DNA of 64,000 nt from a virus. Shown one piece after another: positions 29,807 through 55,637 of the stretch. The notes under the pieces were generated by a model. That model was not told the origin of the DNA. It did not search any database and saw only the letters and a program-made list of their open reading frames with translations. The DNA lies in IMG/VR virus record IMGVR_UViG_3300023174_000063; one strand, written 5' to 3'. The position numbers were made by a program, and so were the translations under genes. Position 1 is the first letter of the stretch. The number at the start of each line of letters is the position of its first letter.

Positions 29807-30175
29807 ATGTCAGATCGATTTGACGAAATGTACGACCAGCAACGTGATTTCAACCAGCTACTGCATGAGCATCGTGGACAGCCTGCATTTCCACTAGATC
29901 TCAAGACAAAGCAGAACCAGCAGTATTTGAAGTCTCTCACACATGAGTGCATGCATGAGCTTTTTGAAGCAAATCTCCTGCTGAAAAACAGCAAGAAGCA
30001 TCGTGCAACAATCGTCGAAGATTTTGATCGTGAGTCCTACAAGGAAGAGCTCTGTGATGCACTGCATTACCTCCTGGGTATTGTCGTGTATTCTGGCATT
30101 TCTAAGGAAGAATTTTTCGAGGCCTACATGAAAAAAGGCCAGATCAATGTTGATCGTATCAAGAGCGGGTACTAA
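29807..30175 (+). CDS. All-alpha dimeric dUTPase/MazG-like nucleotide pyrophosphatase
   Basis: HELFEA...K.H...YKEELCDALHY..: ExxE/EExD metal-binding pattern. Confidence 0.8.
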   Translation: MSDRFDEMYDQQRDFNQLLHEHRGQPAFPLDLKTKQNQQYLKSLTHECMHELFEANLLLKNSKKHRATIVEDFDRESYKEELCDALHYLLGIVVYSGISKEEFFEAYMKKGQINVDRIKSGY

Positions 30176-30194: not shown

Positions 30195-31154
30195 TTGTCT
30201 GATTCTAAGTTTGAGTCGCTTGTTAGTGCTCTGCTAGAGCAGCGTAAATTTTCAGATCTTTTCTATGACACCAAGAACATGTCTGAGTCGGAGCGAGAAG
30301 AGTCTTTGCGCCGACTAGCCTTGTGTGCACACACAGCTGTCTCAGACATCGTCTCTTCTGTCAACTTTAAGTCGCATCTCAAGACGCATCAGCATGTCGA
30401 CCATGCGAAGATGCTCTACAAGACAGTTGATCTTTTTAGGTACACATTGGCAGTACTCAATCTTTGGGATATTGACCCACAAAAGTTTGTAGATGCGTGT
30501 GATATCAAGAACAATTTTCTTCATATGCGTCACCGTTTAGATTCAGCGCCATGGGACGGTCGTCCTGTTGTTGTGTTTGATTGCGATGATGTAATTGCAA
30601 AGTTTAGAAGTCATTTTGATAATTTTCTCGAGAAGAAGTGGTCGATCCCACTAAACCCTGACTCTAACGAGTATTACAATAACGCAGGTCTTGTTGAGGC
30701 AGGTCTAAATCCCGAGATTGCATTTAGAGACTTCTTGAGCTCTGGGCAGATGCGAGAGCTTAAAGTAAATACAAATGTAGCAGACGCAATGAGAATTCTC
30801 TCTGATAGAGGTTACTGGATCCAAATTTTGACTGCTCGTCCTGCTGAGAGCCTTAATTGCTTCTATGACACATTTCACTGGATTGAAAAGAATGGAATTC
30901 CATGCAATGCCGTTGGATTTAGTTCTGAAAAGTACAGGTGGGTAAGCGAGCAACAGTTCTACATGGACGGCAAAATGGTCTGTGCAGTCGATGACTCTCC
31001 TAAGCATGCTGCCGAGTTTGCAGCGCATGGAGTGAAAGCCATAATGCCTGCTATGCCTTACAATGCACATGTCAAAAACTCTGACACGCTCGAGCGAGTA
31101 GACTTTTCTCTGCTGAGCGCTGATGAAATTGTCAAGCTTATTGTCGATCTTTAA
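30195..31154 (+). CDS. Fusion: degenerate MazG/dUTPase-like domain + HAD 5'(3')-deoxynucleotidase (NT5C-like)
   Basis: TTG start with AAGGAG; N-half parallels 29807 protein but lacks the acidic ligands; C-half has FDCDDVI, ILTAR, K, AVDDSP. Confidence 0.75.
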   Translation: MSDSKFESLVSALLEQRKFSDLFYDTKNMSESEREESLRRLALCAHTAVSDIVSSVNFKSHLKTHQHVDHAKMLYKTVDLFRYTLAVLNLWDIDPQKFVDACDIKNNFLHMRHRLDSAPWDGRPVVVFDCDDVIAKFRSHFDNFLEKKWSIPLNPDSNEYYNNAGLVEAGLNPEIAFRDFLSSGQMRELKVNTNVADAMRILSDRGYWIQILTARPAESLNCFYDTFHWIEKNGIPCNAVGFSSEKYRWVSEQQFYMDGKMVCAVDDSPKHAAEFAAHGVKAIMPAMPYNAHVKNSDTLERVDFSLLSADEIVKLIVDL

Positions 31155-31164
31155 TAGACTCTTT

Positions 31165-31193
31165 GTGTAAAATTCGAAGAGTTGTGCTACAAT
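31165..31193 (+). promoter_or_regulatory. Promoter GTGTAA-N17-TACAAT upstream of the ThyX-like gene
   Basis: Same boxes and spacer as at 24999 and 35356. Confidence 0.7.
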
Positions 31194-31214
31194 ATTAAAA
31201 AACGAGGAGTAGTG

Positions 31215-32195
31215 ATGCCAATTAATCATGATCTAGAGCCGATTGTTCTTCCTATGGAGCTTAAGTTTGGTCGTCCTGTCAAGACAGAATATCACAATGC
31301 ACTTGATGCACTCAAGGTTGAGCTTGTTGATGCGCCTACTCGACAGCAGGCTTGGAATGTTGCTTGGCACTTTGTAAAAGCCACATGGGCAGATCGACCT
31401 GATATTGACCCGGGTAGCGCAACACCGCATGAACTCTCTAAGAATCTTGAGGATGTCTTTGGTGGCAGGACTCTTCCTGCTCCAATGGAGTGCCTAGGCT
31501 TCACCTTCCGGCTAAGCGGTCTATCCTTCCAGGACGTAACCCACATTATTCGTCACCGTGCTGGAACATTTGCGGCACAGTGTACGGGCGACAGAGACCT
31601 GAGAGATGACGATGCTGTAATTCCCGAGCCGGTGCAAAACTCGCCAGAGTTTCTCGAGCGCTGGAAGAAGATCGTCGATGAATCGAAGCAGCTTTATGCT
31701 GATATGACAGACTCGAAGGTCGTCTCGATGATGGATGCTCGCCTCATTCTTCCAAAGTGCATGACGTCTTTCTACTATATGCGTCTGCCACTCAAGGATC
31801 TCATCGGCTTTATCTACCAGCGCCAGGATAGGCAGATTCAAACAGCTGCCGACAATATCCTTGCAGTCAGAATGGCAGTTGAAGTTGCAAAGGTTTTGCC
31901 CGAGTTTACAGCTCTCGTCGACTTCAATAAGCCCGATATGCACTACATTAAGACATTCCGAGTCAAGGAGGGCGATAAGTTTGTATCTCGTGGTACAAAC
32001 CTCTACTGGCCTGAGCCCAAGAATGATAAGTTCGACTTTCACCCTGAGGACACGATCTATCAATGTAGGAGAGAAGAGCTTAATGGAACACACGGCGACG
32101 GTGAACAGAAGAAGTTCCTCCAGCACTGGAACAGCGGTGTCGCAGAGTTTGATGAGATTAAGACAAATTACGCATCATGGAAGGCAGGTAAGTAA
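31215..32195 (+). CDS. thyX: Atypical flavin-dependent thymidylate synthase (ThyX/Thy1)-like protein
   Basis: PMEC.GFTF; HIIRHRAGTFAAQCTGDR; DARLILP; GFIYQR; start moved to ATG 31215 after GAGGAG SD. Confidence 0.8.
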   Translation: MPINHDLEPIVLPMELKFGRPVKTEYHNALDALKVELVDAPTRQQAWNVAWHFVKATWADRPDIDPGSATPHELSKNLEDVFGGRTLPAPMECLGFTFRLSGLSFQDVTHIIRHRAGTFAAQCTGDRDLRDDDAVIPEPVQNSPEFLERWKKIVDESKQLYADMTDSKVVSMMDARLILPKCMTSFYYMRLPLKDLIGFIYQRQDRQIQTAADNILAVRMAVEVAKVLPEFTALVDFNKPDMHYIKTFRVKEGDKFVSRGTNLYWPEPKNDKFDFHPEDTIYQCRREELNGTHGDGEQKKFLQHWNSGVAEFDEIKTNYASWKAGK

Positions 32196-32659
32196 TGAGT
32201 TTCGAAAGAAAGCAGTCAGTCTATCTCGCTAGCGGTTGGTTTTCTCCCGACCAGGACAAACAGCTCACAAAGCTCGAGAAGCTCTTTGATGATCGTTCAA
32301 GCTGGATTAATCTTGCATCTCCTCGTCGAATCTTTGTCTGCCCGCCTGACGCATCTCTTGAGGTGCAAGACAATGTTTTCAAGGGCAACATGAAGCATAT
32401 CAGAGAGTGCGATTTTACTCTTGTCAATACAACTTATCGTGATATTGGCACGATTTGGGAAGCCGGCGCTGCATTTGCGCTTGATCGAAAGATCATTTAC
32501 TTTTGTGAGAACCTGCCTGCCGGCGCAAAGTTCAATCTAATGCTTTCACGAAGCGGAATTAAGGTTTGTACAACTTTTGAACAACTTGAAGACTACCTCA
32601 ATCGATGTGAAGCAGCAGGTGAGCTTCTATATGAGCCGTACGACAAGGAAATTGAGTGA
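32195..32659 (+). CDS. Nucleoside 2-deoxyribosyltransferase / dNMP N-glycosidase (NDT/DNPH1/MilB family)
   Basis: VYLASGWFS; SP; DIGTIWEAG (catalytic Glu); FNLML. Confidence 0.85.
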   Translation: MSFERKQSVYLASGWFSPDQDKQLTKLEKLFDDRSSWINLASPRRIFVCPPDASLEVQDNVFKGNMKHIRECDFTLVNTTYRDIGTIWEAGAAFALDRKIIYFCENLPAGAKFNLMLSRSGIKVCTTFEQLEDYLNRCEAAGELLYEPYDKEIE

Positions 32660-32713: not shown

Positions 32714-33697
32714 ATGAACGTTTTTATCACAGGACATAATGGATTTATCGCTATCAATCTTGTGAGCGCCTTCAAAAGACTTGGTCATAAAGTCATTAAT
32801 TTTAATGAGGCACGAAATCGTCTCATCACAAACAGCAAGGGAGAGCCATGTGTCTATCAAAATAGCGAAGATGCATGGCACCAATTTTTTCTAGACACAA
32901 AGACTGATGTTATTGTGCACAATGCAGCGCTAGTAGGCACTGATGTTGTGGCACTAAACCCAGAAGAATCTACACTGAGCAATGTCATGGGTACTCACAC
33001 AATTTGTCGCGTCGCACGAAAAGCTTCTATCCCTGTGTGCTATCTGGGCACATCAGTCATCTATGACACTCCTAAGTACCAGAACGCTGCGATTACTGAG
33101 AGAAGTGAACAGCGTCCAGGCACTTTTTATGGGGTACAGAAGTTGGCCGGAGAACATATAGTCATGTCAACTGCGTCTGAGTGGCTCATCATGCGACCAC
33201 TTTTTGCTTATGGCGGCTTAGGCGATATGAACTCTCTTCCTGCAAAGACATTTTATGCACAGCATCGAGGCGTTGCCAGCATTCCAATGTTTCTAGATCC
33301 TGAAAAGTCAAAAGACTACATGCATGTTGAAGACTTTTGTGATGCAGTTGCGCTAGGGTGCGATGCAGGTCTTTGGCAGCAAGATTTTAATATTTCAGCT
33401 GAGCTGCCACTCAAGACAGGTGAAATCGTCAACCTGATGTCGTCTGTTTGTGGCCATGACTTGGAAAAGATTATTAAGTGGCACCCAGAGACGGATTACC
33501 TTGGAAATCATATTCTTTCATCAGAAAAATTTAGGAAAGCTACTACTTGGACACCTAAATTTACATTAGCCAAAGGGCTGAAGCAGTCATGGGAAAGTAT
33601 CCTCGGCGCCTCTAGTCAGTACAACCCTCTGACGTATTTGGATGAAGCTGAAAAAAGAGGAGTGGATCTAGTTCAATATTTTCCAAAGAGTACGTGA
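32714..33697 (+). CDS. NAD-dependent epimerase/dehydratase (extended SDR)
   Basis: ITGHNGFIA; HNAA; GTSVIY; YGVQK (YxxxK); DYMHVED. Confidence 0.88.
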   Translation: MNVFITGHNGFIAINLVSAFKRLGHKVINFNEARNRLITNSKGEPCVYQNSEDAWHQFFLDTKTDVIVHNAALVGTDVVALNPEESTLSNVMGTHTICRVARKASIPVCYLGTSVIYDTPKYQNAAITERSEQRPGTFYGVQKLAGEHIVMSTASEWLIMRPLFAYGGLGDMNSLPAKTFYAQHRGVASIPMFLDPEKSKDYMHVEDFCDAVALGCDAGLWQQDFNISAELPLKTGEIVNLMSSVCGHDLEKIIKWHPETDYLGNHILSSEKFRKATTWTPKFTLAKGLKQSWESILGASSQYNPLTYLDEAEKRGVDLVQYFPKST

Positions 33698-39400: not shown

Positions 39401-40109
39401 GGAAGAAATCATGAAGAATCGTCCTTACAAGAATCTTGATGATCTTCTCTACGATGCGAGTGGTGAGTGGCGACACTCTAAGGTCAATAAGACTGCCATG
39501 CGATCACTCTGCCTTATCGAGGCTTTCTCCTCGCTTGAAGAGCTGAAGAGCGGTCGAATTAGAAATCATAGGCAGCTTTTGGCTCTCCTGACAGATGAGA
39601 AGAACTATGACACTCTTCGCAAGGGTCGCTTTGGATTGTCTCCAACACAGATCAAGAAGCTGCAGAAGAGCGGCGAGGTTGTTGTACCCATCATTGATAA
39701 GCTTATTGAGACTTACGAGGGGCTGCCCGACTGGAGTCGAACTGAGAAGCTTAAGAATCTCATGGAGATGACGTCCAGTGTCAGCAATGACCTGCTCTTC
39801 CCATCATCGTTAATGCGCAAAGTGAAAGAGAAGTCAGTGCCTTCAGTCTTTCAAATTCCAGGGGGTACAAAGGGCATTGGTTGGTTCTGCGTGACGGAAG
39901 TTCACCAGAAGTCAACCAAGAACGGAAAGAGCTTTTTGCGCCTTAGAATAATTGACAATGAGAATAATTCGACATGGCTGCGCTGCTGGGGCAAGTTTGA
40001 AGAAACACCGGATGAGTTCTCTCTCTGGATCGGTGAAATCGAAAATGACTCCAGCTGGGGCATGTCAACATCTTCCTGGAAGATTAAGCAGCTCAAGGCA
40101 TTTGAGTAA
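36435..40109 (+). CDS. dnaE: DNA polymerase III alpha subunit (family C)
   Basis: PHP motifs LHSHSSFS..DG, TDHG, DSH; GPGRGSAAGS; PDIDTD; GRHAGG; KFDFLGL; YQEQFM; FNKSHSVSY; C-terminal OB fold. Confidence 0.97.
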   Translation: MSFDSAALQNLLKISPPKNFTGLHSHSSFSTFDGLGYPKDHIEFITSEAQGMDSWALTDHGNGSGLAHARAAAVKKQKSGKKYRQLYGVEFYFVPSLDEWQKQIDAHQQSVKDAKSSREAQLLAESPTIIKPADEDDEQGGHVIENEEETKESKTDKPEWKRYYHLVVIAKNRVGLGNLFTLVKKSFKHGFYRFPRIDYKMLKEHGEGLVVSTACVGGLPSSLIYREFAGKSFNELTPDLLTGPAAEAAVKNIRGRLDNMADRFVDCVGRDNFFLELQFNDLPAQHLTNQCLIELSQRTGLPLVATADSHFPSPDKWQARELYKKLGWIGAKLDKTMIPKLEDMKTMLYPKNAEQMWEEFKKGYTQYSFYQGHEELVRDAIERTHDIAWQKCEDTWVDTSVKLPIHRFEDKTPFQRLVELAKDHLAQEGLADNPVYVERLKEELSDIKHLGHESYFLTMYEVFKRAEKRTLMGPGRGSAAGSLLNFLLGITQFDPLPYGLLWGRFLGRWRVSYPDIDTDAANRDILIDSARELYGDDAVIPVSNFNTLKLKSLIKDISKFYDVPFEEVNAMTGPLQDEVMPHARDDDQEKSVFVLKHEDCMKYSEGYRTFMEKYPDVAAHVETLFMENRSIGRHAGGVILADPTALEQSMPIISVRGELQTPWTEGMNFRNLEDNGFLKFDFLGLTLLKDVEDCIARILRRRGNKNPTFADVKAFFDENINCRYHKLDDPAVYKHVYHQRRKTGVFQFTNEGARKLCEEARPSSIEEVAAITAIYRPGPLKANVHRKYIKAREEFGAGRMKFDHPIIEEILGPTAGFLIYQEQFMELARRLGGFTNAESDQLRKTLVKKSLDTLDKKGSEKELAKQKFIEGAQKLHGLSPAITEPLWQTIDFMSVYCFNKSHSVSYAIDSYYAAWFHTHYETDWLATCLQSENNNPDGLEKTITEIKSYGYKFMQSDINYSGDVWMYSNELQAFIPPLSSVKGVGTTAMEEIMKNRPYKNLDDLLYDASGEWRHSKVNKTAMRSLCLIEAFSSLEELKSGRIRNHRQLLALLTDEKNYDTLRKGRFGLSPTQIKKLQKSGEVVVPIIDKLIETYEGLPDWSRTEKLKNLMEMTSSVSNDLLFPSSLMRKVKEKSVPSVFQIPGGTKGIGWFCVTEVHQKSTKNGKSFLRLRIIDNENNSTWLRCWGKFEETPDEFSLWIGEIENDSSWGMSTSSWKIKQLKAFE

Positions 40110-40118
40110 AACTAAATT

Positions 40119-40147
40119 TTGTACACATCGAGTGCATTGTGTATAAT
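40119..40147 (+). promoter_or_regulatory. Promoter TTGTAC-N17-TATAAT
   Basis: Upstream of the kinase/TS fusion; variant of the recurrent class. Confidence 0.65.
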
Positions 40148-40167
40148 ACGTTGAATCCAACAAGGAG

Positions 40168-41133
40168 ATGTTCATAATGCTGAACTTGAAGTGCATTACT
40201 ATTGAGGGCCCTGACTGCGCCGGCAAGAGCTCTCTCTATAATGATATTCATCGAGAAACTAGCTTTAGATGGAATATTCAAGACAGAGGTCAGCTAAGCA
40301 TGGTTTGCTATGCTAGACTCTATGAACGAGGTAGTGAAATAGTTGATCATTGGCGCGCAGAACTTCATGAGTACCTTAAAAATCTAAATCAACGTCTAAT
40401 TGTGCTTCTGCCGCCTCTTCGTGTGCTACACCAGCGCCTGGAGTCACGAGGCGACCCCATGCAGAATGCAGAGTCCCTGTCTAAACTTTACGAGATATTT
40501 GATGACGAGCTTAAGATTTTGCACGCTGAAGATCTGCCTAATGTGTTGGTTATTAGAGGCGAAAATTCCCTAGATGAAAACGTTAAGCATTGCCTGTCAT
40601 GGTTGGCGCATGCGGGCATTTCCACTGCTAGAAATATTGCCAGCGACGTAGAGGCTGCAGTATTTGCATCACCTAAGAATGAAATATGTGGTTTAAATTT
40701 TGAACTCAATTTCAAGAGCGGCACCGCCGAGTTTCAGGCGCTGGAGAATCCAGCAGTAATGCAGTATCTGCCAGAAGAGGTGTATTACTCTGAAATACTG
40801 TCAAAAGTTTTAAAGAATATTGACGACGAAATCAATGGTAGAAATCCTTACTCACGCCCTGAGAACCCGCGGAGTACGCGCCGTTTTATCTTTGCGCAAG
40901 ATAGCTGCATTTCTACTATTCATACAATGATTCGCGACGATTCGATGACAATGAAGGTCTACTGTAGATCATCAAATGTTACCAATACATTTCCCCATGA
41001 TCTAGGATTTATCTGCTATCTTTTCACTAGAGTTTATCATCATTTATTTCACCGTACGCTATGGCGACCAACAAATTGCTCTCTGCGAGTAGAGATTGGA
41101 TCTGCACATTTACCCGCAATGGCGGGCCACTAA
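40168..41133 (+). CDS. Fusion: dNMP (thymidylate-type) kinase + truncated thymidylate-synthase/dCMP-hydroxymethylase-like domain
   Basis: ITIEGPDCAGKS, DRGQLS..Y, LESRGD (kinase); STRRFI..DSCISTIHTMIRD..MKVYCRSSNVTNTFPHD...GSAHL (TS fold); start 40168 or 40177. Confidence 0.75.
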   Translation: MFIMLNLKCITIEGPDCAGKSSLYNDIHRETSFRWNIQDRGQLSMVCYARLYERGSEIVDHWRAELHEYLKNLNQRLIVLLPPLRVLHQRLESRGDPMQNAESLSKLYEIFDDELKILHAEDLPNVLVIRGENSLDENVKHCLSWLAHAGISTARNIASDVEAAVFASPKNEICGLNFELNFKSGTAEFQALENPAVMQYLPEEVYYSEILSKVLKNIDDEINGRNPYSRPENPRSTRRFIFAQDSCISTIHTMIRDDSMTMKVYCRSSNVTNTFPHDLGFICYLFTRVYHHLFHRTLWRPTNCSLRVEIGSAHLPAMAGH

Positions 41134-41152
41134 TATTACTGGGAGTAACGCT

Positions 41153-42178
41153 ATGCATGTTTTAGTCACAGGTGGCGCAGGTTTTATTGGCAGCAATCTT
41201 GTTCACGCTCTTGTCCAAAAAGGCTGGATCGTCGACGTTATTGATGATTTAAGCAGTGGTAATTTAGATAATCTTGCAGGTCTAGAGACAAGGTTTTTGA
41301 CGACTAATATCCTGCATTTCTATGAGGAGAATGTAGAGTCAGGTGACCATAAAAAAGTTCGTTTTATTACTGGAGACTTTGCAAATCTCAATGTTCTTCG
41401 ACGCATAGAGGCTGGAAAATATCGCTATATCTTCCATCTAGCTGCAGTACCTAGAGTTGGTTTTAGTGTTCAATTTCCTGCAGAAACCGCAGAAACTAAT
41501 CTTTTAAAGACAATCAAGCTTTTTGAATCTGCTTCAAAGTCTGGATCTTGTCGTGTTATTTTCTCTTCGTCATCTTCTGTGTACGGCAACGCATCTGTCA
41601 GACCCACGCCTGAGTCCATTACAAAGCACCCGAGGTCGCCATATGCGCTACAGAAACTACACTGCGAAGATTATGCACGTCTTTTTAGAGAACTTCACGG
41701 ATTAGATTTTGTTGCGCTTCGATATTTTAATGTCTATGGGCCTCGACAGTTTGGCAACTCTCCTTACGCAACCGCCATCTCAGCTTGGTGCACTGCAGTT
41801 CACACAGGAAAGCCGCTTCGAAGCGACGGCGACGGCACACAGTCTAGAGATCTCACGTATGTCGATGACGTAGTAGAAGCAAATATTAAGGCAGCATTGG
41901 CTGGAGCATCATGTTCAGGAGAGAGCTATAATATTGCTGCCGGTAAGCCTGTTTCAAATCTCAAGATTCTCGAGGCGTTTCGAGATCGTTACGGAGATAA
42001 AGTCACTATAACAAAAGCACCTTGGCGCCCCGGCGACGTGATGCATACAGAGGCCGACCCTATGAAGGCACGGCTACAACTAGGATTTACGTGCAGTGTA
42101 GACTTTGACACTGGTCTGCGCAAGACATTTGAATGGTGGGATAATATTGTGCGCCTGGAGGAAGAAAATCATGCTTGA
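41153..42178 (+). CDS. NDP-sugar epimerase/dehydratase (GalE/WbpP-like SDR)
   Basis: VLVTGGAGFIGS; HLAA; SSSSVYG; SPYALQK; LRYFNVYGPRQ; GDGTQSRDLTYVDDVV. Confidence 0.92.
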   Translation: MHVLVTGGAGFIGSNLVHALVQKGWIVDVIDDLSSGNLDNLAGLETRFLTTNILHFYEENVESGDHKKVRFITGDFANLNVLRRIEAGKYRYIFHLAAVPRVGFSVQFPAETAETNLLKTIKLFESASKSGSCRVIFSSSSSVYGNASVRPTPESITKHPRSPYALQKLHCEDYARLFRELHGLDFVALRYFNVYGPRQFGNSPYATAISAWCTAVHTGKPLRSDGDGTQSRDLTYVDDVVEANIKAALAGASCSGESYNIAAGKPVSNLKILEAFRDRYGDKVTITKAPWRPGDVMHTEADPMKARLQLGFTCSVDFDTGLRKTFEWWDNIVRLEEENHA

Positions 42179-42743
42179 TGAATTTACAGACCCAGAATTT
42201 ATTATTTTTACAGGACCCATGTGGGGGTCTAAAACAACGAGAATGTTGGCAGCTGTCGATAGATATCGATATCAAAAGCGCAGCATTGTTGCTTTTAAGC
42301 CCGTGATGGATGCTCGATATTCAGAACAAGAGATTAGGACACACTCGGGGGGCAGTCTTCCTGCTGTAGGTGTTAATACAGGGCATGATATCGAAGAGTA
42401 TCTGAGACAACTGGCAGTTAAGACTGATGTTGTAGCAGTCGATGAGGCATTCATGATCGATGGGTCTGCTGAGACACTTGTAAGACTCTTTAGGTCGGGC
42501 AAGACAATTGTTGTCTCTTCTCTCCAGCTTTCCGCTAGCGGCAACGTTTTTACGGAGATTAGAGACATGATGCCATGGGCAACTCGCATTGAGGTTTGCC
42601 CAGCAGTCTGCCCATTAACAGGCAGAGATGCTTACTACACGCATCGCAAAGTAGATGGGCTTAGTGAAATCACTGTAGGAGGCTCTGAGCTCTATGAGCC
42701 TAGGTGCTGGCGCTACCACTCTTATATGAACTTGCGAGACTGA
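42171..42743 (+). CDS. tdk: Thymidine kinase
   Basis: TGPMWGSKTT; FKPVMDARY; VAVDEAF; AVC; VGGSELYEPRC. Confidence 0.88.
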   Translation: MLDEFTDPEFIIFTGPMWGSKTTRMLAAVDRYRYQKRSIVAFKPVMDARYSEQEIRTHSGGSLPAVGVNTGHDIEEYLRQLAVKTDVVAVDEAFMIDGSAETLVRLFRSGKTIVVSSLQLSASGNVFTEIRDMMPWATRIEVCPAVCPLTGRDAYYTHRKVDGLSEITVGGSELYEPRCWRYHSYMNLRD

Positions 42744-42744
42744 T

Positions 42745-43158
42745 ATGACACAGAGAGTTCGTCCAAGTTGGGATAGTGTTTGGATGAAGATGGCTGAGAC
42801 AATTGCGCAGCGGTCACACGATAATCGCTGTCAAGTTGGCGCTGTTGTAGTGACGAGCGACAACACGCAAGTGCTGTCAGTCGGTTATAACGGAAATTAT
42901 GCAGGAGGGCCTGATTGCTCAGAATCAGAAGAACCAGGCATGTCAGGACTTTTGCATGCAGAAATTAATGCTCTCCTTAAACTTGATTACAACAATCCTA
43001 AGAAAAAGATTTTGTATGTAACAATGTCACCTTGCGCAATGTGCGCTAAGGCAATTGTCAATGCCGGCATCAATGAAGTAGTCTACTCGCTAGTCTATAG
43101 AGATCTCCAGTGTTTTAAGATTTTAGATGACGCAGGTGTTATTATAAGAAAAATTTAA
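42745..43158 (+). CDS. dCMP deaminase
   Basis: VGAVVV..VGYNG; HAEINA; SPCAMC. Confidence 0.92.
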   Translation: MTQRVRPSWDSVWMKMAETIAQRSHDNRCQVGAVVVTSDNTQVLSVGYNGNYAGGPDCSESEEPGMSGLLHAEINALLKLDYNNPKKKILYVTMSPCAMCAKAIVNAGINEVVYSLVYRDLQCFKILDDAGVIIRKI

Positions 43159-43188
43159 TGTGCCGCCTTAAAACACTGCTTAGTCGTA

Positions 43189-43209
43189 ATACTTATTGCG
43201 GTATATTTA
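43189..43209 (+). promoter_or_regulatory. Tandem putative late promoter motifs ATACTTA / ATATTTA
   Basis: At 43189 and 43203, at the start of the virion-protein block. Confidence 0.45.
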
Positions 43210-43240
43210 AAAAATATCTTCAAAGCAGGAGTGAAGCGAC

Positions 43241-46198
43241 ATGTCTTATTTTGATAGTAAAGAGATTAACCACTTAGCAGATCTAATTGATCAAGGCCAG
43301 AGTTATTCGTGGACGTCTCGTAAAGAGGAAATATTTTGGACAAAAGCAGCAGAAAAAATTCTTCGTGAGCATGCTGCTGGACAAAAATCACCTCTTTCAG
43401 AGGCAGCTCTTACTTCATTTTCTAGACGCAGCGGTATTTTAAGAGAGAGTCTAGAGACGCATCTTGTTCTTCACGCCGGAAATAGAAATCTTGCTTCTCT
43501 TCTTGAGGCAGATGATGAGATGACAAAGAAATTCGAAAAGGAGCCTGAAAAGAAGGGCTTCTTTGGAAGTATCGCTAAGGGTTTGGGTAAAGGTCTTGCA
43601 TGGATTGCAAAAAAACTTCCCGGCAAAACTCTAAAGTCCAGAAACTGGAGAATTTTAGGTGGCGGCGGTTCAAAGGAAGACGAGAAGTATAGAAAGGCCA
43701 AAGAGGAAGCACTTTCAGCTGCCTATTTGCCCATTCTAAAGAAAGAATTTGATAAAATAATTAACAATATCGACATTCAGGCATCAGGTCTAGACAAAAA
43801 AGGCATGCCCAATTTTGCAGGAGATGGGACAGGCGTAATTTTTAAAGAAATGATTTATTCGCTTGTTAATTTTGCACTAATGGCAAGATCCGCGACCGGT
43901 GCGGGCCCTACAAAATCTGGAGCCTCTGTAGAAATAAAGAGTGATAGTCCGTTTAAAGATGCCGGCATCACTGCTGATGATGCTAACGCGCTCATACGTG
44001 GCGTTCGAAAAGTTCTTCTTGGATGGGATAGAGAGCTCGAAGATAGATGGATTTACGCTCTTGAAGGAAGAAAAAATCAAAATCTCCCGCTTCTCTCAGA
44101 AGTTATTCTAGATGAAGCTCCAGAGGCACCAGAAAACGAGCTTGGCAAAGCTGGACAAAAAGCCAGCTCACAAAAGTCATATTCAATGAAGGGTCCTGCT
44201 GTGTTAGCAGCTTTAGGCGCGCTCGGAGGCGTGTTTGGATGGCTGACAACGCAGTCGTGGTTCATGCAAATGTTCACCGAACCTGCAAGGTGGTCATCCA
44301 TTTTAAAGGCGGTTAAGGCTGTTAAGACACTTGGCATAACGCAGGAAATAGCTTTTCTAATAGGTAGACCAGGTGAAAATATAAGCAGTATGACCGTCGG
44401 CGAAATGAAAGAACGCATGATGGAATTTGGATGGCTCGGAGACGACGGCATGCCCACTGAGAGGCTAATAAAAATGGCTGAAATGTGCGGCAACCCAGAT
44501 ATCGTGAAATGGTGGGCAAAGAATGTAGCTGGAAGAGGAAGCAAGGTCACATTAGAGCAAGCTATTCCTTTGAGCGGCGCCGGCGCCCCAGGCGCCGGCG
44601 GCGATATCGGTGTTTTAGAGACTGTCGGTTATGAGGTTAAAAAGACTCTAATCGATGCGGGTGGACTGTCAGCTCTCGGTACGCTAGTTGCAAAAGCCGG
44701 TGCAGTCGCCGGACCCTTGGGCGTAGGCTTGCTAGGTGGAGCAGCTGCATCAGCACTGCTTAGAAAGTACGGCAAGGAGAATAGCAGAGCATCAGTTATA
44801 CAGGCTGCTCTCGATCTTTTAGAAGATGCCGAAGTCGATCCTTCTGAAGTACCTGAAACGCCTCCCCCTTCGAGCGAGAAACCCGAAGGCAAACCCGATG
44901 GTTCTAAAACATCGCCTACAGGTGACAAGCCTGCCGATGCACCTCCTGTGCCTGACTTGGATGGCGACATGATAGCATTGGCGCGCTATGCATTTGCAAA
45001 ATCACTTAGAGACAATGTCGGCTTTGACCCTGAGAAGGACGTCGAACTCAATAGTGCCGCTGATGAAGATCTTAAACAGTGGAAAAAAGTAAATCCTAGC
45101 GCTTCTCCCGAGGAGACGCAGGATGCGCTAAAAGCCTTTAGAAAAAAGAGAGGGGTAAAACCTGCAGGAGATGAAGCACACAAAAAGGAATTTATAAAGG
45201 TTCTAAATCAAGTTGCTCGCGACAGGGCAATTGCTGAGTCTATGCACAGAAAATTGACATTAGTAGAAGCAACAGCGCTTTTGAACGCGGGAATACTACT
45301 GAGTGACGTACTTCAAGAGGCCGGCCCCAAGCGTCTAGGCTTAGGTGATCCTGATGGCTCAGATAAAATTTCTACAGGTCCTGACGGAAGAATGTTTAGG
45401 GGGCAGTTTTCGTGGGTGGATAAGCCTGAAGTTATTGACAAGATGTGGTCACACGCACTCAATCATTTCAAAAAGGAAGGTGGCAGCCACGATTCAACAA
45501 AAGAGATAGGTCGAGCAAAAGAACAGCTTTCACGTAAAAAAATATTCGGCGGTACAGGTGGAAAAGATGCCTCTGCTGAAGAAAAAAGATTTATGATGGG
45601 GGCGTCGCCTGAAGCGCAAAAGGCACTCAATAAAAAGATGCTAGAGATGCTGAATAAAATTGTTAGTAGCGGAGTCCTTTACTTCAAAGACAAGCTCTCA
45701 AGCAAGAGTATAGCGATGAATCTAAACAATAAAGACGTTGCAACAGATTCAGGTAAGCAATTTGTCATGCGCGCAATTGTTGAATATGGCAAGAACCTTA
45801 GAACCGACCCTAAGGCAGCCTGGACTCTACAGTATCTAAGGTTCCAATATTCTAAATTGATTGACGGAGCACCCACAGATGAAGGCAAGAAGGCCGCGGT
45901 CTTGTCTATTAATCCGCAAGGATTTGAACTTAAGCCCGGATCTCCTATGGGTGCTGTCGCATCCAGCCTTTTTGGCACAGAAAAGATGAACTTTATTAGC
46001 GCAGACAATAAAAATTGGTTTGGCGAAGTACGCAAAGAAGGCGCATCAGCACCTACGGGCGCTAGAATACCCGCAGCAAATTTCATGATTGGCGAGGCGA
46101 CAAAGCGCTCTAATTCTGGAAAAATTTTGGCTGAGTCAACTGTTCCGGCTCCCGTCGACCCTGTTCTTTTAAAATGGCAGAAATTAGCAGGACTTTGA
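43241..46198 (+). CDS. Large putative internal virion (ejection-type) protein with C-terminal KWQKLAGL tag
   Basis: 985 aa; many L/I-x-E-A/S motifs; Gly/Ala hydrophobic segments; Pro-rich linker. Confidence 0.55.
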   Translation: MSYFDSKEINHLADLIDQGQSYSWTSRKEEIFWTKAAEKILREHAAGQKSPLSEAALTSFSRRSGILRESLETHLVLHAGNRNLASLLEADDEMTKKFEKEPEKKGFFGSIAKGLGKGLAWIAKKLPGKTLKSRNWRILGGGGSKEDEKYRKAKEEALSAAYLPILKKEFDKIINNIDIQASGLDKKGMPNFAGDGTGVIFKEMIYSLVNFALMARSATGAGPTKSGASVEIKSDSPFKDAGITADDANALIRGVRKVLLGWDRELEDRWIYALEGRKNQNLPLLSEVILDEAPEAPENELGKAGQKASSQKSYSMKGPAVLAALGALGGVFGWLTTQSWFMQMFTEPARWSSILKAVKAVKTLGITQEIAFLIGRPGENISSMTVGEMKERMMEFGWLGDDGMPTERLIKMAEMCGNPDIVKWWAKNVAGRGSKVTLEQAIPLSGAGAPGAGGDIGVLETVGYEVKKTLIDAGGLSALGTLVAKAGAVAGPLGVGLLGGAAASALLRKYGKENSRASVIQAALDLLEDAEVDPSEVPETPPPSSEKPEGKPDGSKTSPTGDKPADAPPVPDLDGDMIALARYAFAKSLRDNVGFDPEKDVELNSAADEDLKQWKKVNPSASPEETQDALKAFRKKRGVKPAGDEAHKKEFIKVLNQVARDRAIAESMHRKLTLVEATALLNAGILLSDVLQEAGPKRLGLGDPDGSDKISTGPDGRMFRGQFSWVDKPEVIDKMWSHALNHFKKEGGSHDSTKEIGRAKEQLSRKKIFGGTGGKDASAEEKRFMMGASPEAQKALNKKMLEMLNKIVSSGVLYFKDKLSSKSIAMNLNNKDVATDSGKQFVMRAIVEYGKNLRTDPKAAWTLQYLRFQYSKLIDGAPTDEGKKAAVLSINPQGFELKPGSPMGAVASSLFGTEKMNFISADNKNWFGEVRKEGASAPTGARIPAANFMIGEATKRSNSGKILAESTVPAPVDPVLLKWQKLAGL

Positions 46199-46335: not shown

Positions 46336-46767
46336 GTGAAACAGAATAAAAAAATTACTGAAATGCAACTCATTAATGAGATGAGACGTATCTACCGCCA
46401 GAGACTAAATGAGACACTTCAAGGAATAAATGAAGTAGAAGTACATGACAAACAAGGAAAAATTATAATTTCTCCAGGATTAAAAGTACGTCACAAGAAG
46501 AGCAAATTTGAATATACTATACAAGATATCGATTCTTCTAAGAAGACCGTCAATCTACTTTCTCCAGAGGCTCCTAGAGTTACAAGCACACCGTCAGGTT
46601 CGTCAAAAATGAAAATGCTGCCAGACGAAGAACTAATTAAACTTATGAATAGTAAAATTGAAATACCTGCAAATCTTTTGCAGGGCGGCGAAGATGATTC
46701 ACAGAATGAAGAAGTACTCGCTGTTTCTTTTGCAGAATTTACCAAAAATTATGAGGTTACAGAATGA
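46336..46767 (+). CDS. Hypothetical protein, putative virion protein
   Basis: KITEMQLINE, LNET, INEV motifs; ATGA overlap with next gene. Confidence 0.7.
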   Translation: MKQNKKITEMQLINEMRRIYRQRLNETLQGINEVEVHDKQGKIIISPGLKVRHKKSKFEYTIQDIDSSKKTVNLLSPEAPRVTSTPSGSSKMKMLPDEELIKLMNSKIEIPANLLQGGEDDSQNEEVLAVSFAEFTKNYEVTE

Positions 46768-47447
46768 GCGATAGCAAAATTGATGCAGACATCAAGAAGA
46801 TTTTAGGTCTCAATGATCGCATTGTTAGCGAATCGTATGTAACTGCTGCAAAAAAATATGACGTCACGTCAGAGTTGCTTAGCGAGAAAAGTAAGTCTGC
46901 ACGCCAGAAGGAATATGAGAAGTACATTGATGCTCTAAATAAAGTTTCTGCGCAGCTTGATACTGCAAATCGACAGGAAGCAAATAGATTCTCGTCTGAG
47001 TTTAGGCATTGCAAGACAGAAGAGTCACATTTGCTGACCACTGCGTTTTTAAAGGCATATCATTTTGAAAACATCAGTGATCTTAGGAGTCAAATCGCCG
47101 TAGACTCTATTTGCTTCATGCGACTCGAGCGAGACTTTGGTTCATTTGATGATTGGCAGAAAGATTTTATTGCCTGTGGCATGTCAGCTAGAAATGGTTT
47201 TGTAATAACTGCATACAGCTTTTTGCTTCGAAGATATATTAATGTTATAGTAGATAATCAGTCTCAGGGAGTCCCTGTTGCATGTATGCCTGTTATCGTT
47301 CTCGATGTCTCAGACGGTGCTTACTATAGAGACTATTTAGATGATAGAAAGTCTTATATGACAGCAATGATGAAAGAGTTTGATTGGGAAAAAATTGAGG
47401 ATCGCTTCAAGCAGTCTGACAAAATGTCTAAGGTGATGGGGGCTTAA
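46764..47447 (+). CDS. Fe/Mn superoxide dismutase-like protein, degenerate (metal His ligands lost)
   Basis: FENI; LERDFGSFDDWQKDF; PVIVLDVSDGAYYRDY..DRKSY...FDWEKIEDRF (canonical DVWEHAYY). Confidence 0.75.
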   Translation: MSDSKIDADIKKILGLNDRIVSESYVTAAKKYDVTSELLSEKSKSARQKEYEKYIDALNKVSAQLDTANRQEANRFSSEFRHCKTEESHLLTTAFLKAYHFENISDLRSQIAVDSICFMRLERDFGSFDDWQKDFIACGMSARNGFVITAYSFLLRRYINVIVDNQSQGVPVACMPVIVLDVSDGAYYRDYLDDRKSYMTAMMKEFDWEKIEDRFKQSDKMSKVMGA

Positions 47448-51768: not shown

Positions 51769-52173
51769 ATGAAAAAGCTATTAACCGAAGTAATGCATGA
51801 TTACTTCGCTGGAGAGCAAGAGCAAGAATTTAATCCTTTGCGCGGCTTAGTTGTGCAGCGAGGCATGCCCGTTGTCCCTAAAAGGACGACAAGATGGCAA
51901 AAAGTTTCAAGCCCTAACAGGCTTCATGCGAGCTATACGTTCAAATCAAAAAATGAATACTATCTTTTCCTAGTAGAAATTTTTTCGCACGAACGCAAAG
52001 TCAACCATCATGCAAAAGTTATCTGTGAATACCCAGAAATTATAATTGAAGTTTACACACATGACGTCAATGATATTACTGAATTAGACTTAGAATATTC
52101 TCGAGAAATTGAGGAAATTTACAAGGACGTCAAGGATTATGCGAACTACAACGAAAAAGACACAGACGTATAA
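51769..52173 (+). CDS. Pterin-4a-carbinolamine dehydratase-like protein
   Basis: W......L..SYTFKS...FL.EI...E..VNHHAKV...VYTHDVNDITELDL. Confidence 0.75.
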   Translation: MKKLLTEVMHDYFAGEQEQEFNPLRGLVVQRGMPVVPKRTTRWQKVSSPNRLHASYTFKSKNEYYLFLVEIFSHERKVNHHAKVICEYPEIIIEVYTHDVNDITELDLEYSREIEEIYKDVKDYANYNEKDTDV

Positions 52174-55616: not shown

Positions 55617-55637
55617 TTGGAGAATGCAGGAGACTAC

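What the first reader, a model, noticed from the sequence alone, without database searches (positions are those of the whole stretch)
40168..41133. dNMP kinase fused to a minimal thymidylate-synthase-fold domain with a cytosine-type specificity residue
Seen: a P-loop kinase N-half and a C-half with RR..., the catalytic Cys (DSC), RSSNVTNTFPHD and GSAHL. Established: ThyA has RSxD...PFN, where Asn177 selects dUMP; T4 gp42 has Asp at that position and uses dCMP. Here the position is Asp (FPHD), RSxD has become RSSN, and much of the folate-binding region seems absent. Inference: it modifies dCMP, perhaps with a non-folate electrophile, and channels the product to the fused kinase.
Basis: partly seen in the sequence, partly recalled or inferred. 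Interest (0 to 1): 0.8.

Follow-up and report, generated by a model that had tools for sequence, protein, structure and literature searches.

The report
Kinase fused to mini thymidylate-synthase-like enzyme
A gene of an uncultured large marine phage fuses a small nucleotide kinase to the smallest thymidylate-synthase-type enzyme domain yet seen, built to act on cytosine nucleotides, so this widespread phage group probably puts a chemically altered cytosine into its DNA.

Summary
The ORF (probable true start 40177, 318 aa) has two confidently modelled domains. Residues 1-151 are a YorR/TMPK/dNK-type P-loop kinase. Residues 152-321 are a thymidylate-synthase (TS) fold cut down to about 170 aa.

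In 144 relatives the catalytic Cys, the RR pair, the RS pair, the His and the Asp at the ThyA-N177 position are conserved in 142-144 sequences each. That Asp aligns with T4 gp42 D179. The folate-side elements are missing.

The fusion is conserved in at least 130 IMG/VR contigs, including a 284 kb complete genome. It always follows the phage DnaE, and usually sits with TK, dCMP deaminase, ThyX, a nucleotidase and SDR sugar enzymes. No cultured phage has it.

A 2026 paper shows that TS homologues with D169N plus N177D are flavin/O2-dependent 5-hydroxy-dCMP synthases. In three phage families they sit beside a YorR/TMPK-like kinase. Here the two are fused, and this protein carries both substitutions.

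Best reading: a dimeric enzyme that makes a C5-modified dCMP, most likely 5-hydroxy-dCMP, and phosphorylates it. The chemistry stays open, because the "169" residue switches among N, D and E at least 19 times within the family. The scan noted this same stretch before, in another window of this genome.

Verdict: new variant of a known kind.

The parts
40177..41133 (+). Coding sequence of the kinase / mini-TS fusion. It is 318 aa from ATG 40177; the finding's ATG 40168 gives 321 aa. Residue numbers in this report count from 40168.
   Evidence: ORF. RBS spacing. An identical 318-aa database protein (P0002) and 66 full-length homologue clusters.
40162..40167 (+). AAGGAG ribosome-binding site, 9 nt before ATG 40177.
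   Evidence: Read directly.
40177..40620 (+). N-terminal P-loop kinase domain (residues 4-151), YorR/TMPK/dNK type.
   Evidence: VIA-align: 3kb2 YorR Z 14.3, rmsd 2.7, 140 aligned; TMPKs and deoxyadenosine kinase Z about 13. Family profile against PDB: YorR E=9.5e-8. phrog_761 E=2.9e-10.
40204..40230 (+). P-loop EGPDCAGKS (residues 13-21).
   Evidence: G19 and K20 are invariant in 144 sequences.
40282..40287 (+). D39-R40, the DR motif of TMPK/dNK-type kinases.
   Evidence: Invariant 144/144. Aligned to IIDRF of YorR.
40435..40455 (+). LID-like segment R90...R94-G95-D96.
   Evidence: R90, R94 and D96 are invariant 144/144. Aligned to RLRVRGDE of YorR.
40621..41130 (+). C-terminal minimal thymidylate-synthase-fold domain (residues 152-321).
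   Evidence: Domain model pLDDT 94.1. VIA-align: 9iqu AfhB Z 11.0, rmsd 3.0, 139 aligned; ThyA Z about 10, covering E. coli ThyA 1-214; MilA 10.4. Wide search: only TS-superfamily chains reach Z>=8.
40879..40884 (+). R238-R239, equivalent to ThyA R126/R127, the phosphate-binding arginines donated across the dimer.
   Evidence: Conserved 144 and 143 of 144. In the predicted dimer, R238 and R239 of one copy touch R267 and S268 of the other.
40906..40908 (+). C247, the predicted catalytic nucleophile (ThyA C146, gp42 C148).
   Evidence: Invariant 144/144. Aligned to the catalytic Cys of T4 dCH and AfhB.
40966..41001 (+). RSSNVTNTFPHD. R267-S268 correspond to ThyA R166/S167, N270 to ThyA D169, and D278 to ThyA N177 / gp42 D179.
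   Evidence: HMM alignments. Conservation. Meaning of the positions from PMC13326640.
41098..41112 (+). GSAHL. H314 corresponds to ThyA H207. The protein ends 7 residues later.
   Evidence: H314 in 142/144; tails of 2-7 residues in most members.

Best explanation
The gene encodes a homodimeric, bifunctional enzyme of phage DNA-precursor synthesis.

Step 1, the TS-like half. It binds dCMP. D278 reads the cytosine N3/N4 edge. The 5'-phosphate is held by R267 and S268, by R238' and R239' from the partner subunit, and probably by R256. C247 adds to C6, which makes C5 nucleophilic. C5 then attacks an electrophile held where ThyA holds the pterin ring. Because the folate-side elements are deleted, and by analogy with AfhB and RB69 gp48, the electrophile is most likely a flavin C4a-hydroperoxide. 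The product would then be 5-hydroxy-dCMP.

Step 2, the kinase half. The fused YorR/TMPK-like kinase converts the modified dCMP to the diphosphate. Host NDP kinase and the adjacent phage DnaE would put it into DNA.

Supporting roles around the gene. The neighbouring MazG-like NTP pyrophosphatase, the nucleotidase and the NDT-family enzyme would clean the pools. The dCMP deaminase, ThyX and TK would supply dTTP. The SDR epimerase/dehydratases may supply a sugar donor for later decoration.

Shown here: fold, conserved catalytic set, Asp at the specificity position, TS-like predicted dimer, fusion and synteny. Inferred: substrate, cofactor, product, kinase specificity, and any glycosylation.

My odds: about 0.75 that it is an active C5-modifying pyrimidine-nucleotide enzyme coupled to a kinase; about 0.7 that the substrate is dCMP; about 0.4 that the product is 5-hydroxy-dCMP.
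For: 1. Fold. The C-domain matches only TS-superfamily structures at Z>=8. The flavin-dependent dCMP hydroxylase (9iqc/9iqu) ranks first at Z 10.7-11.0, but it is tied within 1 Z of ThyA.

2. Catalytic residues are near-invariant in 144 sequences.

3. D278 aligns with gp42 D179.

4. This protein has both published signature residues of 5hodCMP synthases, D169N and N177D (PMC13326640).

5. Like AfhB, the protein ends shortly after the SAH motif. The AfhB-type protein has 14-16 residues after it, this protein 7.

6. In DLP3, RB69 and RL38J1 a kinase whose best structural matches are YorR or TMPK sits beside the 5hodCMP synthase (Table 1). The JK45 orthologue of that kinase is phrog_761 (E=4e-45). 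That is also the best PHROG of our N-domain (E=2.9e-10). Here the two are one polypeptide. In L083 they are neighbouring genes separated by a homing-endonuclease gene.

7. Dimer prediction. Score 0.84, best of 3 controls 0.36. The mark was reached by 20 of 30 proteins solved as pairs of one chain and by 1 of 23 solved as single chains. The runs agree in at least 94% of contacts, and the partner's pLDDT is at least 88. R238 and R239 of one copy contact R267 and S268 of the other, as in ThyA. ThyA dimers are solved, so this pass may come from the model's memory. It shows likeness to ThyA dimers, not binding.

8. Context. DnaE is next to the gene in 80/80 loci, TK in 69, dCMP deaminase in 69, the SDR in 54 and the NDT-like gene in 49. 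ThyX is also present, so dTMP synthesis is covered by another enzyme. No PF00303 ThyA was found in five related contigs. In a sixth related contig, the 284 kb record rated 100% complete, the fusion is the only TMPK-like match. That record was not searched for ThyA.
Against: - The ThyA-D169 position is N in 61, D in 59 and E in 23 of 144 sequences. It changes at least 19 times on the family tree, and 13 of those changes are forced by well-supported branches. It does not correlate with neighbouring genes. So the published D169N rule does not cleanly apply, and the family may use another cofactor.
- Sequence similarity to AfhB is only E=0.07, weaker than to T4 dCH at E=0.0026. The structural scores of AfhB, ThyA and MilA are tied.
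- The domain is about 50-65 aa smaller than AfhB, so a flavin site may not be retained.
- No DNA glycosyltransferase lies in the module. GT4 genes in relatives are about 100 kb away.
- A phage Fpg/Nei-like glycosylase (28753-29559) would be awkward for 5-hydroxycytosine DNA. This rests on my own knowledge of Nei/Fpg substrates.
- In RB69 the T4 gp1-type dNMP kinase, not the YorR-like kinase, was shown to phosphorylate 5hodCMP. The role of the YorR-like kinase is unproven even in the model systems.
Confidence: 0.4

Rival explanations
1. Folate-dependent dCMP hydroxymethylase or methylase, like T4 gp42 or XP12, fused to the kinase. The mini-TS domain would still bind 5,10-methylene-tetrahydrofolate and make 5-hydroxymethyl-dCMP or 5-methyl-dCMP, which the kinase phosphorylates.
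For: - The best sequence match in PDB is T4 dCMP hydroxymethylase (profile E=0.0026; hhalign E=3.8e-5).
- 57% of family members keep an acidic residue (D or E) at the ThyA-D169 position. That residue binds the pterin ring in ThyA (my own knowledge).
- The residues before the Cys are polar (QDSC) rather than hydrophobic, as in the hydroxymethylases.
- The module parallels T4's set of cd, tk, gp42, gp1 and gp56.
Against: - The ThyA segments that hold the pABA-glutamate part and close over folate are deleted. These are the region around W80/W83, the loop 133-143 and the C-terminal 50 residues.
- 42% of members, this one included, have Asn at the 169 position. That is the published mark of the non-folate hydroxylases.
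Confidence: 0.2
2. The same covalent Cys-C6 chemistry, but with a cofactor or electrophile not yet described for the TS superfamily, giving an undescribed C5-modified cytosine. One candidate is a simple tetrahydropterin plus O2, recycled by the conserved phage pterin-4a-carbinolamine dehydratase. Others are formaldehyde or CO2 used directly.
For: - This is the smallest TS-fold domain seen here, about 170 aa. Stand-alone forms of 164-230 aa exist.
- The cofactor-facing 169 position is evolutionarily labile.
- A 4a-hydroxytetrahydrobiopterin dehydratase gene lies about 10 kb from the fusion in 5 of 5 related contigs and in the window.
- A SOD-like gene is in 59 of 80 loci. Both fit O2 chemistry.
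Against: This is purely circumstantial. The PCD and SOD genes may serve unrelated purposes. No pterin-dependent hydroxylation by a TS fold is known.
Confidence: 0.15
3. The kinase half is simply the phage's dTMP or dNMP kinase. The TS-like half would be a non-catalytic or regulatory nucleotide-binding or dimerisation module, or would act on another nucleotide such as dUMP or CMP.
For: - The fusion is the only TMPK-like match in a 284 kb complete relative, so a phage that makes dTMP with ThyX may need it for dTDP.
- JGI annotates relatives as thymidylate kinase.
- The TS-like domain forms the predicted dimer interface.
Against: - A pseudo-enzyme would not keep Cys, RR, RS, His, Glu and Asp in 142-144 of 144 sequences down to about 30% identity.
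- Stand-alone mini-TS proteins exist without any kinase.
- Asp at the N177 position argues against dUMP.
Confidence: 0.1

Closest known systems
Flavin-dependent dCMP 5-hydroxylases / 5hodCMP synthases (phage HY126 AfhB, PDB 9iqu/9iqc; RB69 gp48; DLP3 gp80)
   Same: - TS fold; it is the top structural match (Z 10.7-11.0).
- Catalytic Cys and the RS pair.
- Asn at ThyA-169 and Asp at ThyA-177 in this protein.
- The protein ends soon after the SAH motif.
- Partnered with a YorR/TMPK-like kinase.
- Phage nucleotide-metabolism context with a MazG-type pyrophosphatase and sugar-nucleotide enzymes.
   Different: - About 170 aa instead of 217-238.
- Only 9 residues between RR and Cys.
- Sequence similarity is marginal (E=0.07).
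- The 169 position is not fixed as Asn across the family.
- The kinase is fused rather than encoded next door.
- No adjacent glycosyltransferase or arabinose genes.
- Flavin binding is untested.
T4 gp42 dCMP hydroxymethylase (PDB 1b5d, 6l18)
   Same: - The best sequence-level match (profile E=0.0026).
- D278 aligns with D179.
- Cys, RS and His align.
- The pathway logic is similar, with a dNMP kinase, dCMP deaminase, TK and a pyrophosphatase.
   Different: - gp42 is 246 aa with an intact folate site and RSND.
- It is not fused to its kinase gp1, which has a different kinase fold type from YorR/TMPK.
- Structural Z is 8.7, lower than for AfhB or ThyA.
Thymidylate synthase ThyA (PF00303) and MilA CMP hydroxymethylase
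   Same: - Same fold (Z 9.6-10.7 for ThyA, 8.6-10.4 for MilA), aligned over E. coli ThyA 1-214.
- The predicted dimer has arginines shared across the interface.
   Different: - No PF00303 match.
- Lacks the W80/W83 region, loop 133-143 and the C-terminal 50 residues.
- Asp instead of Asn177.
- ThyX, not this protein, is the phage's thymidylate synthase.
YorR (B. subtilis SPbeta, PDB 3kb2/2axp) and the cluster 'nucleotide kinases' RB69 gp45, DLP3 gp78 and RL38J1 gp214
   Same: - EGPD-type P-loop, DR motif and RxxxRGD LID.
- The best structural (Z 14.3) and sequence (E=9.5e-8) match is YorR.
- Same PHROG (761) as the JK45 orthologue of RB69 gp45.
   Different: - Shorter, about 150 aa.
- hhalign to the JK45 kinase aligns only the P-loop.
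- No substrate is known for any member.
437-aa viral 'thymidylate kinase / thymidylate synthase' fusion cluster in the ESM Atlas
   Same: The same domain order idea, a TMPK-like part plus a TS-family part, in viruses.
   Different: Its TS part is full-size and recognised by PF00303. It shows no sequence-level link to this family, and I found no paper on it.

Membership tests
Thymidylate synthase superfamily (ThyA / dCMP hydroxymethylase fold) | The TS alpha/beta fold | tested here: met
   The domain model has pLDDT 94. All 7 PDB representatives with Z>=8 are TS-superfamily chains, and the next is 5.6. 139-146 residues align at rmsd about 3 A, covering E. coli ThyA 1-214.
Thymidylate synthase superfamily (ThyA / dCMP hydroxymethylase fold) | Catalytic Cys, with RR before it and RS after it | tested here: met
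   C247 144/144, R238 144, R239 143, R267 and S268 143 each. They align to T4 dCH and AfhB.
Thymidylate synthase superfamily (ThyA / dCMP hydroxymethylase fold) | Obligate dimer with arginines donated to the partner's active site | tested here: met
   By prediction only. Score 0.84 against a best control of 0.36. The mark was reached by 20 of 30 proteins solved as pairs of one chain and by 1 of 23 solved as single chains. Contact agreement is at least 94% and pLDDT at least 88. R238 and R239 touch R267' and S268'. This may reflect the model's memory of solved ThyA dimers.
Thymidylate synthase superfamily (ThyA / dCMP hydroxymethylase fold) | Match to Pfam PF00303 above its cut-off | tested here: not met
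   No PF00303 hit for the protein. There is only phrog_160 at E=0.018. Relatives reach PF00303 at E=0.02-0.12, below the cut-off. So it belongs to the superfamily by structure, not to the Pfam family by sequence threshold.
Thymidylate synthase superfamily (ThyA / dCMP hydroxymethylase fold) | Folate-binding elements: the W80/W83 region and a C-terminal tail closing the site | tested here: not met
   16 residues (224-239) stand in place of about ThyA 66-125. There are 9 residues between RR and Cys, against 20-23. The protein ends 2-7 residues after the His.
5hodCMP synthase (flavin-dependent dCMP hydroxylase: AfhB, RB69 gp48) | Asp at ThyA-N177 (cytosine specificity) | tested here: met
   D278 is present in 142/144 sequences and aligns to gp42 D179.
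5hodCMP synthase (flavin-dependent dCMP hydroxylase: AfhB, RB69 gp48) | Asn at ThyA-D169, the published diagnostic residue | tested here: inconclusive
   It is met in this protein (N270). Across orthologues it is N 61, D 59 and E 23, with at least 19 changes on the tree.
5hodCMP synthase (flavin-dependent dCMP hydroxylase: AfhB, RB69 gp48) | Bound flavin and O2-dependent hydroxylation | not testable with these tools
   This needs purified protein, UV-vis at 370/455 nm and 18O2 labelling, as in PMC13326640.
5hodCMP synthase (flavin-dependent dCMP hydroxylase: AfhB, RB69 gp48) | Significant sequence relationship to characterised members | tested here: inconclusive
   Profile against AfhB E=0.07. 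hhalign against the JK45 AfhB-type protein gives probability 55% and E=1.2e-4 over 67 columns.
5hodCMP synthase (flavin-dependent dCMP hydroxylase: AfhB, RB69 gp48) | Association with a YorR/TMPK-like nucleotide kinase | tested here: met
   The two are fused in one polypeptide here. They are adjacent genes in DLP3, RB69 and RL38J1, in JK45 and in L083.
TMPK / dNK-type P-loop nucleotide kinases (YorR-like) | Fold, P-loop GK[ST], DR motif and Arg-rich LID | tested here: met
   Z 14.3 to YorR and 13 to TMPKs. G19, K20, D39, R40, R90, R94 and D96 are invariant.
TMPK / dNK-type P-loop nucleotide kinases (YorR-like) | Match to PF02223 or PF01712 above the cut-off | tested here: not met
   PF01712 at E=0.19 and no PF02223 hit for this protein. 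Two homologues carry a precomputed PF02223 hit.
TMPK / dNK-type P-loop nucleotide kinases (YorR-like) | Phosphorylation of a (modified) dNMP | not testable with these tools
   This needs a kinase assay with dCMP, dTMP, 5ho-dCMP, 5hm-dCMP and the nucleosides.

The most novel reading that the evidence does not exclude
The mini-TS domain is a new catalytic branch of the TS superfamily that uses neither folate nor flavin. For example, it could use a simple tetrahydropterin plus O2, recycled by the conserved phage 4a-hydroxypterin dehydratase, or a small electrophile directly. It would then make a cytosine C5 modification not yet described. That base would replace C in the DNA of a widespread clade of uncultured marine jumbo phages.
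Probability: 0.15. Interest if true: 0.85.

Novelty: new variant of a known kind. Interest (0 to 1): 0.62.

Why it matters
If the reading holds, a large and so far uncultured group of ocean phages carries a dedicated one-protein route to a non-canonical cytosine nucleotide. The group comprises at least 130 IMG/VR contigs and 428 protein clusters at 50% identity, with genomes up to 284 kb.

That would matter in four ways:
1. It would extend modified-cytosine DNA from a few cultured phage families to abundant marine viruses. Such DNA affects restriction and CRISPR evasion, sequencing bias and metagenome recovery.
2. The fusion is Rosetta-stone evidence that the unexplained YorR/TMPK-like 'nucleotide kinase' in the 5-hydroxycytosine clusters of RB69, DLP3 and RL38J1 works with the TS homologue.
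3. It defines the minimal catalytic core of the TS fold, about 165-170 aa.
4. It shows that the published D169N predictor does not transfer simply to this branch. Natural N, D and E variants of one orthologue offer a direct test of what that residue does.

Tried and rejected
- tblastn of the protein against 50,697 cultured-phage records found no match at E<=1e-3. The family is known only from metagenomes.
- No whole genome is held for the window. I used related IMG/VR records instead.
I had hoped to look for base-calling signs of modification, and no read-level check was possible.
- I looked for a link between N, D or E at position 270 and the presence of the SDRs, NDT, ThyX, PCD, SOD, MazG or nucleotidase genes. 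There is no clean correlation. Mutual-information partners of position 270 look phylogenetic, not active-site.
- hhalign of the family profile against the JK45 cluster kinase aligned only the P-loop. Direct homology to RB69 gp45-type kinases therefore rests on the shared PHROG and the shared best structural match.
- The He et al. paper on AfhB is not in the library. Its flavin-contacting residues could not be compared.
I could not do pocket analysis, assign which ThyA helix equals helix 201-223 (E203/Y207), or examine the geometry between the kinase site and the TS site.
- PDB sequence searches of the MazG-like and NDT-like neighbours gave no specific assignment. NCBIfam places the SDRs only generally, as GalE or dTDP-glucose dehydratase-like, below the cut-offs.
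- The scan of 185,579 species genomes gave only two full-length hits, both in MAG contigs (L093, L105). It gave no host clue.
- Promoter-like sites in 39800-43400 are no more frequent than in shuffles, 6 against 6.6.
Full report
WHAT IS THERE

The + strand ORF 40168-41133 lies in a window where all genes are on one strand. That window is clearly a large phage. It encodes RNR, gp32-like, RecA-like, DnaB-like, topoisomerase II, DnaE, GroEL and more.

The first ATG touches the AAGGAG at 40162-40167. The second ATG, at 40177, is 9 nt downstream of it and matches the N-terminus of every homologue. The real product is therefore probably 318 aa. I keep the numbering from 40168.

They are EGPDCAGKS (13-21), R238-R239, DSC with C247, RSSNVTNTFPHD (267-278) and GSAHL (311-315).

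TWO DOMAINS

AlphaFold2 with a 39-sequence alignment gives pLDDT 93.6 and pTM 0.89.

Residues 2-153 are a TMPK/dNK-type kinase. The best match is B. subtilis SPbeta YorR (3kb2: Z 14.3, rmsd 2.7, 140 aligned), followed by deoxyadenosine kinase and thymidylate kinases at Z about 13. The family profile finds YorR by sequence at E=9.5e-8. G19, K20, D39, R40, R90, R94 and D96 are invariant in 144 sequences.

Residues 150-321 were modelled alone, with pLDDT 94.1. They match the TS superfamily:
- 9iqu (phage HY126 dCMP hydroxylase AfhB): Z 11.0, rmsd 3.0, 139 aligned.
- ThyA: Z about 10, spanning E. coli ThyA 1-214.
- MilA: Z 10.4.

An exhaustive alignment to 48,161 PDB representatives gives seven chains at Z>=8. 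All are TS-superfamily chains: 9iqc 10.7, four ThyA entries (one of them the TS part of a DHFR-TS) 9.2-10.2, T4 dCH 8.7 and MilA 8.6. The next chain scores 5.6.

By sequence, the profile reaches T4 dCMP hydroxymethylase at E=0.0026 and AfhB at E=0.07. Pfam and NCBIfam do not recognise the C-domain.

ACTIVE-SITE BOOKKEEPING

The HMM alignments give these equivalences:
- C247 is the catalytic Cys.
- R267-S268 are ThyA R166/S167.
- N270 is ThyA D169. It aligns to the D of gp42's RSND and the N of AfhB's RSQN.
- D278 is ThyA N177 and gp42 D179. The D179N mutant entry 6l18 shows N in that column.
- H314 is ThyA H207.

Over 144 family sequences the counts are C247 144, R238 144, R239 143, R267 and S268 143 each, D278 142, H314 142 and E203 144. 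Y207, E221, G224 and N226 are each conserved in 140-142, and Y228 in 128. A pseudo-enzyme would not keep this set down to about 30% identity.

WHAT IS MISSING

Compared with ThyA, gp42 and AfhB, the domain differs in three places:
- Only 16 residues (224-239) stand where ThyA has roughly residues 66-125.
- Only 9 residues lie between RR and the Cys, against 20-23.
- The chain stops 2-7 residues after the His. gp42 has 28 residues there, the AfhB-type protein 14-16, and E. coli ThyA about 55 (the last from my own knowledge).

DIMER

Two copies of the full protein are predicted to pair. The score is 0.84 and the best of 3 controls is 0.36. The mark was reached by 20 of 30 proteins solved as pairs of one chain and by 1 of 23 solved as single chains. 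The runs agree in at least 94% of contacts, and the partner's pLDDT is at least 88.

The interface is the TS-like sheet (172-175, 238-268, 311-314). R238 and R239 of one copy touch R267 and S268 of the other, which is the ThyA arrangement. ThyA dimers are solved, so the pass may come from the model's memory. It shows likeness, not binding.

Conserved kinase residues (N36, D39, M45, Y48, R54) also lie at the interface. This hints that the kinase site is close to the partner, but I could not resolve it further.

DISTRIBUTION

- 66 clusters at 90% identity, all about 300-320 aa, some from Tara samples.
- At least 130 IMG/VR contigs, all carrying the full-length fusion.
- 428 clusters at 50% identity in an exhaustive profile search with the C-domain alone.
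- Related contigs reach 284 kb (CheckV 100%). Others of 147-237 kb are rated 44-77% complete, so these are jumbo phages.
- No cultured phage has the gene.

Stand-alone mini-TS proteins of 164-230 aa exist. One follows a 152-aa P-loop kinase and an inserted homing-endonuclease gene (L083). Another follows an HD nucleotidase and ThyX (L084).

The ESM Atlas holds three 'hypothetical' viral clusters of this family. It also holds a separate 437-aa viral TMPK plus full-size TS fusion cluster.

CONTEXT

The module is syntenic across 80 loci. The order is Fpg-like, MazG-like, nucleotidase, ThyX-like, NDT-like, SDR, DnaE, FUSION, SDR, TK, dCMP deaminase, then a SOD-like gene and, further on, pterin-4a-carbinolamine dehydratase.

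Counts out of 80 loci are DnaE 80, TK 69, dCMP deaminase 69, SOD-like 59, the second SDR 54 and NDT-like 49. PCD is present in 5 of 5 long relatives, about 10 kb from the fusion.

ThyX covers dTMP synthesis, and no PF00303 ThyA is present in five relatives. The mini-TS is therefore not the thymidylate synthase.

The set parallels T4's cd, tk, gp42, gp1 and gp56 logic. That parallel rests on my own knowledge and on the T4 annotation.

WHAT IS KNOWN

PMC13326640 (NAR 2026) reports four points that bear on this gene:
- RB69 gp48, DLP3 gp80 and nine other TS homologues carrying D169N together with N177D make 5-hydroxy-dCMP.
- The oxygen comes from O2, and the enzymes bind a flavin. The HY126 homologue AfhB was crystallised with flavin.
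- D169N is proposed as a predictor of this activity.
- The product needs a dNMP kinase to enter DNA and is then glycosylated.

Table 1 of that paper lists a 'nucleotide kinase' next to the synthase in DLP3, RB69 and RL38J1. Its best structural matches are YorR or TMPK, and its function is untested. In JK45 the same pair is annotated as dCMP hydroxymethylase and thymidylate kinase. That kinase falls in phrog_761 (E=4e-45), which is the best PHROG of our N-domain (E=2.9e-10). The synthase falls in phrog_160, which our C-domain hits weakly (E=0.018) and its stand-alone relatives hit at 1e-5 to 1e-6.

Thus the fusion joins the two protein types that recur together in 5-hydroxycytosine phages, and this protein carries both signature residues.

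WHY I STOP SHORT OF CALLING IT A 5hodCMP SYNTHASE

- Position 270 is N in 61, D in 59 and E in 23 of the 144 sequences. It changes at least 19 times on the tree (13 forced by supported branches), and it does not correlate with neighbouring genes. Either the residue is not decisive in this branch or the cofactor differs.
- AfhB, ThyA and MilA are tied structurally.
- Sequence similarity is slightly better to gp42.
- The domain is much smaller than AfhB.
- No glycosyltransferase lies nearby. GT4 genes in relatives are about 100 kb away.

VERDICT

Best-supported mechanism: a dimeric enzyme makes a C5-modified dCMP by covalent Cys catalysis and passes it to the fused kinase.

My odds:
- About 0.75 for that general statement.
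- About 0.4 for 5-hydroxylation by flavin and O2.
- About 0.2 for folate-dependent hydroxymethylation or methylation.
- About 0.15 for a new cofactor or electrophile. The conserved PCD and SOD genes make a pterin/O2 route worth testing.
- About 0.1 for a non-catalytic role or another substrate.

It is a new variant of a known kind. The fold and chemistry type are known. The minimal architecture, the fusion, the labile '169' residue and the phage clade are not described in anything I could find.

Noticed in passing
window 31182-32195 (+): This ThyX-like protein is 337 aa, with an N-terminal extension of about 95 aa. It matches Thy1/thyX only weakly (PF02511 E=1e-14; TIGR02170 31.6 bits against a cut-off of 87.9). 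It recurs beside mini-TS genes, in the window's module and in L084. It may not be an ordinary ThyX.
   Followed up: partly
window 51769-52173 (+): A pterin-4a-carbinolamine (4a-hydroxytetrahydrobiopterin) dehydratase gene sits in this phage. It is present about 10 kb from the fusion in 5 of 5 related long contigs. No pterin-dependent hydroxylase was identified.
   Followed up: partly
window 46764-47447 (+): An Fe/Mn superoxide-dismutase-like protein (Sod_Fe_C E=7e-15; haloarchaeal Mn-SOD model E=1.5e-20, below its cut-off). It is conserved in 59 of 80 related loci.
   Followed up: partly
window 28753-29559 (+), and 28206-28760: A complete Fpg/Nei-type DNA glycosylase with all three Pfam domains is encoded by the phage. 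This is odd for a phage suspected of carrying an oxidised or modified pyrimidine.
   Followed up: no
window 29807-30175, 30195-31154, 32195-32659 (+): Three possible pool-cleaning genes lie here: a MazG/dimeric-dUTPase-like NTP pyrophosphatase (122 aa), an NT5C-type 5'-nucleotidase with an N-terminal extension of about 120 aa, and an NDT-family protein (PDB 6evs E=1e-11). Their specificities are unknown.
   Followed up: partly
window 41096-42178 and 32714-33697 (+): Two extended-SDR NDP-sugar epimerase/dehydratase genes flank DnaE and the fusion. Both are GalE or dTDP-glucose-dehydratase-like, below equivalog cut-offs. The listed TTG start at 41096 overlaps the fusion. ATG 41153 (MHVLVTGGAGFIG) is the likely start.
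   Followed up: partly
L083:2499-3990: In one metagenomic contig the kinase (152 aa) and the mini-TS (186 aa) are separate genes, with a NUMOD3 homing-endonuclease-like ORF between them. This is a split form of the fusion.
   Followed up: partly
ESM Atlas cluster (row 5): A 437-aa viral 'thymidylate kinase / thymidylate synthase' fusion cluster has a full-size PF00303 domain and 62 members. It appears to be a separate, larger version of the same architecture.
   Followed up: no
L094, L096, L097, L100, L103, L109: Small stand-alone kinases of 161-177 aa share the EGPDCSGKST P-loop. They occur in Nanoarchaeota/Woesearchaeota and Patescibacteria MAGs and sit at the border between TMPK and dNK. 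They are relatives of the fusion's N-domain.
   Followed up: partly
window 40120-40147 (+): A sigma-70-like site (TGTACA, 16 nt spacer, TATAAT; 10 of 12 matches) lies in the 58-nt gap between DnaE and the fusion. The count of such sites in the region is at chance level.
   Followed up: yes
window 55617-57779 (+): A 720-aa protein has an N-terminal cytidylyl/adenylyltransferase-like domain (phrog_395 E=1e-5). It could be a nucleotidyltransferase for a sugar or cofactor.
   Followed up: no
window 12310-13533, 16543-17487, 58608-59423 (+): A short (407 aa) family-A polymerase-like ORF and two separate 5'-3' exonuclease (FEN) genes sit alongside the DnaE-type replicase.
   Followed up: no
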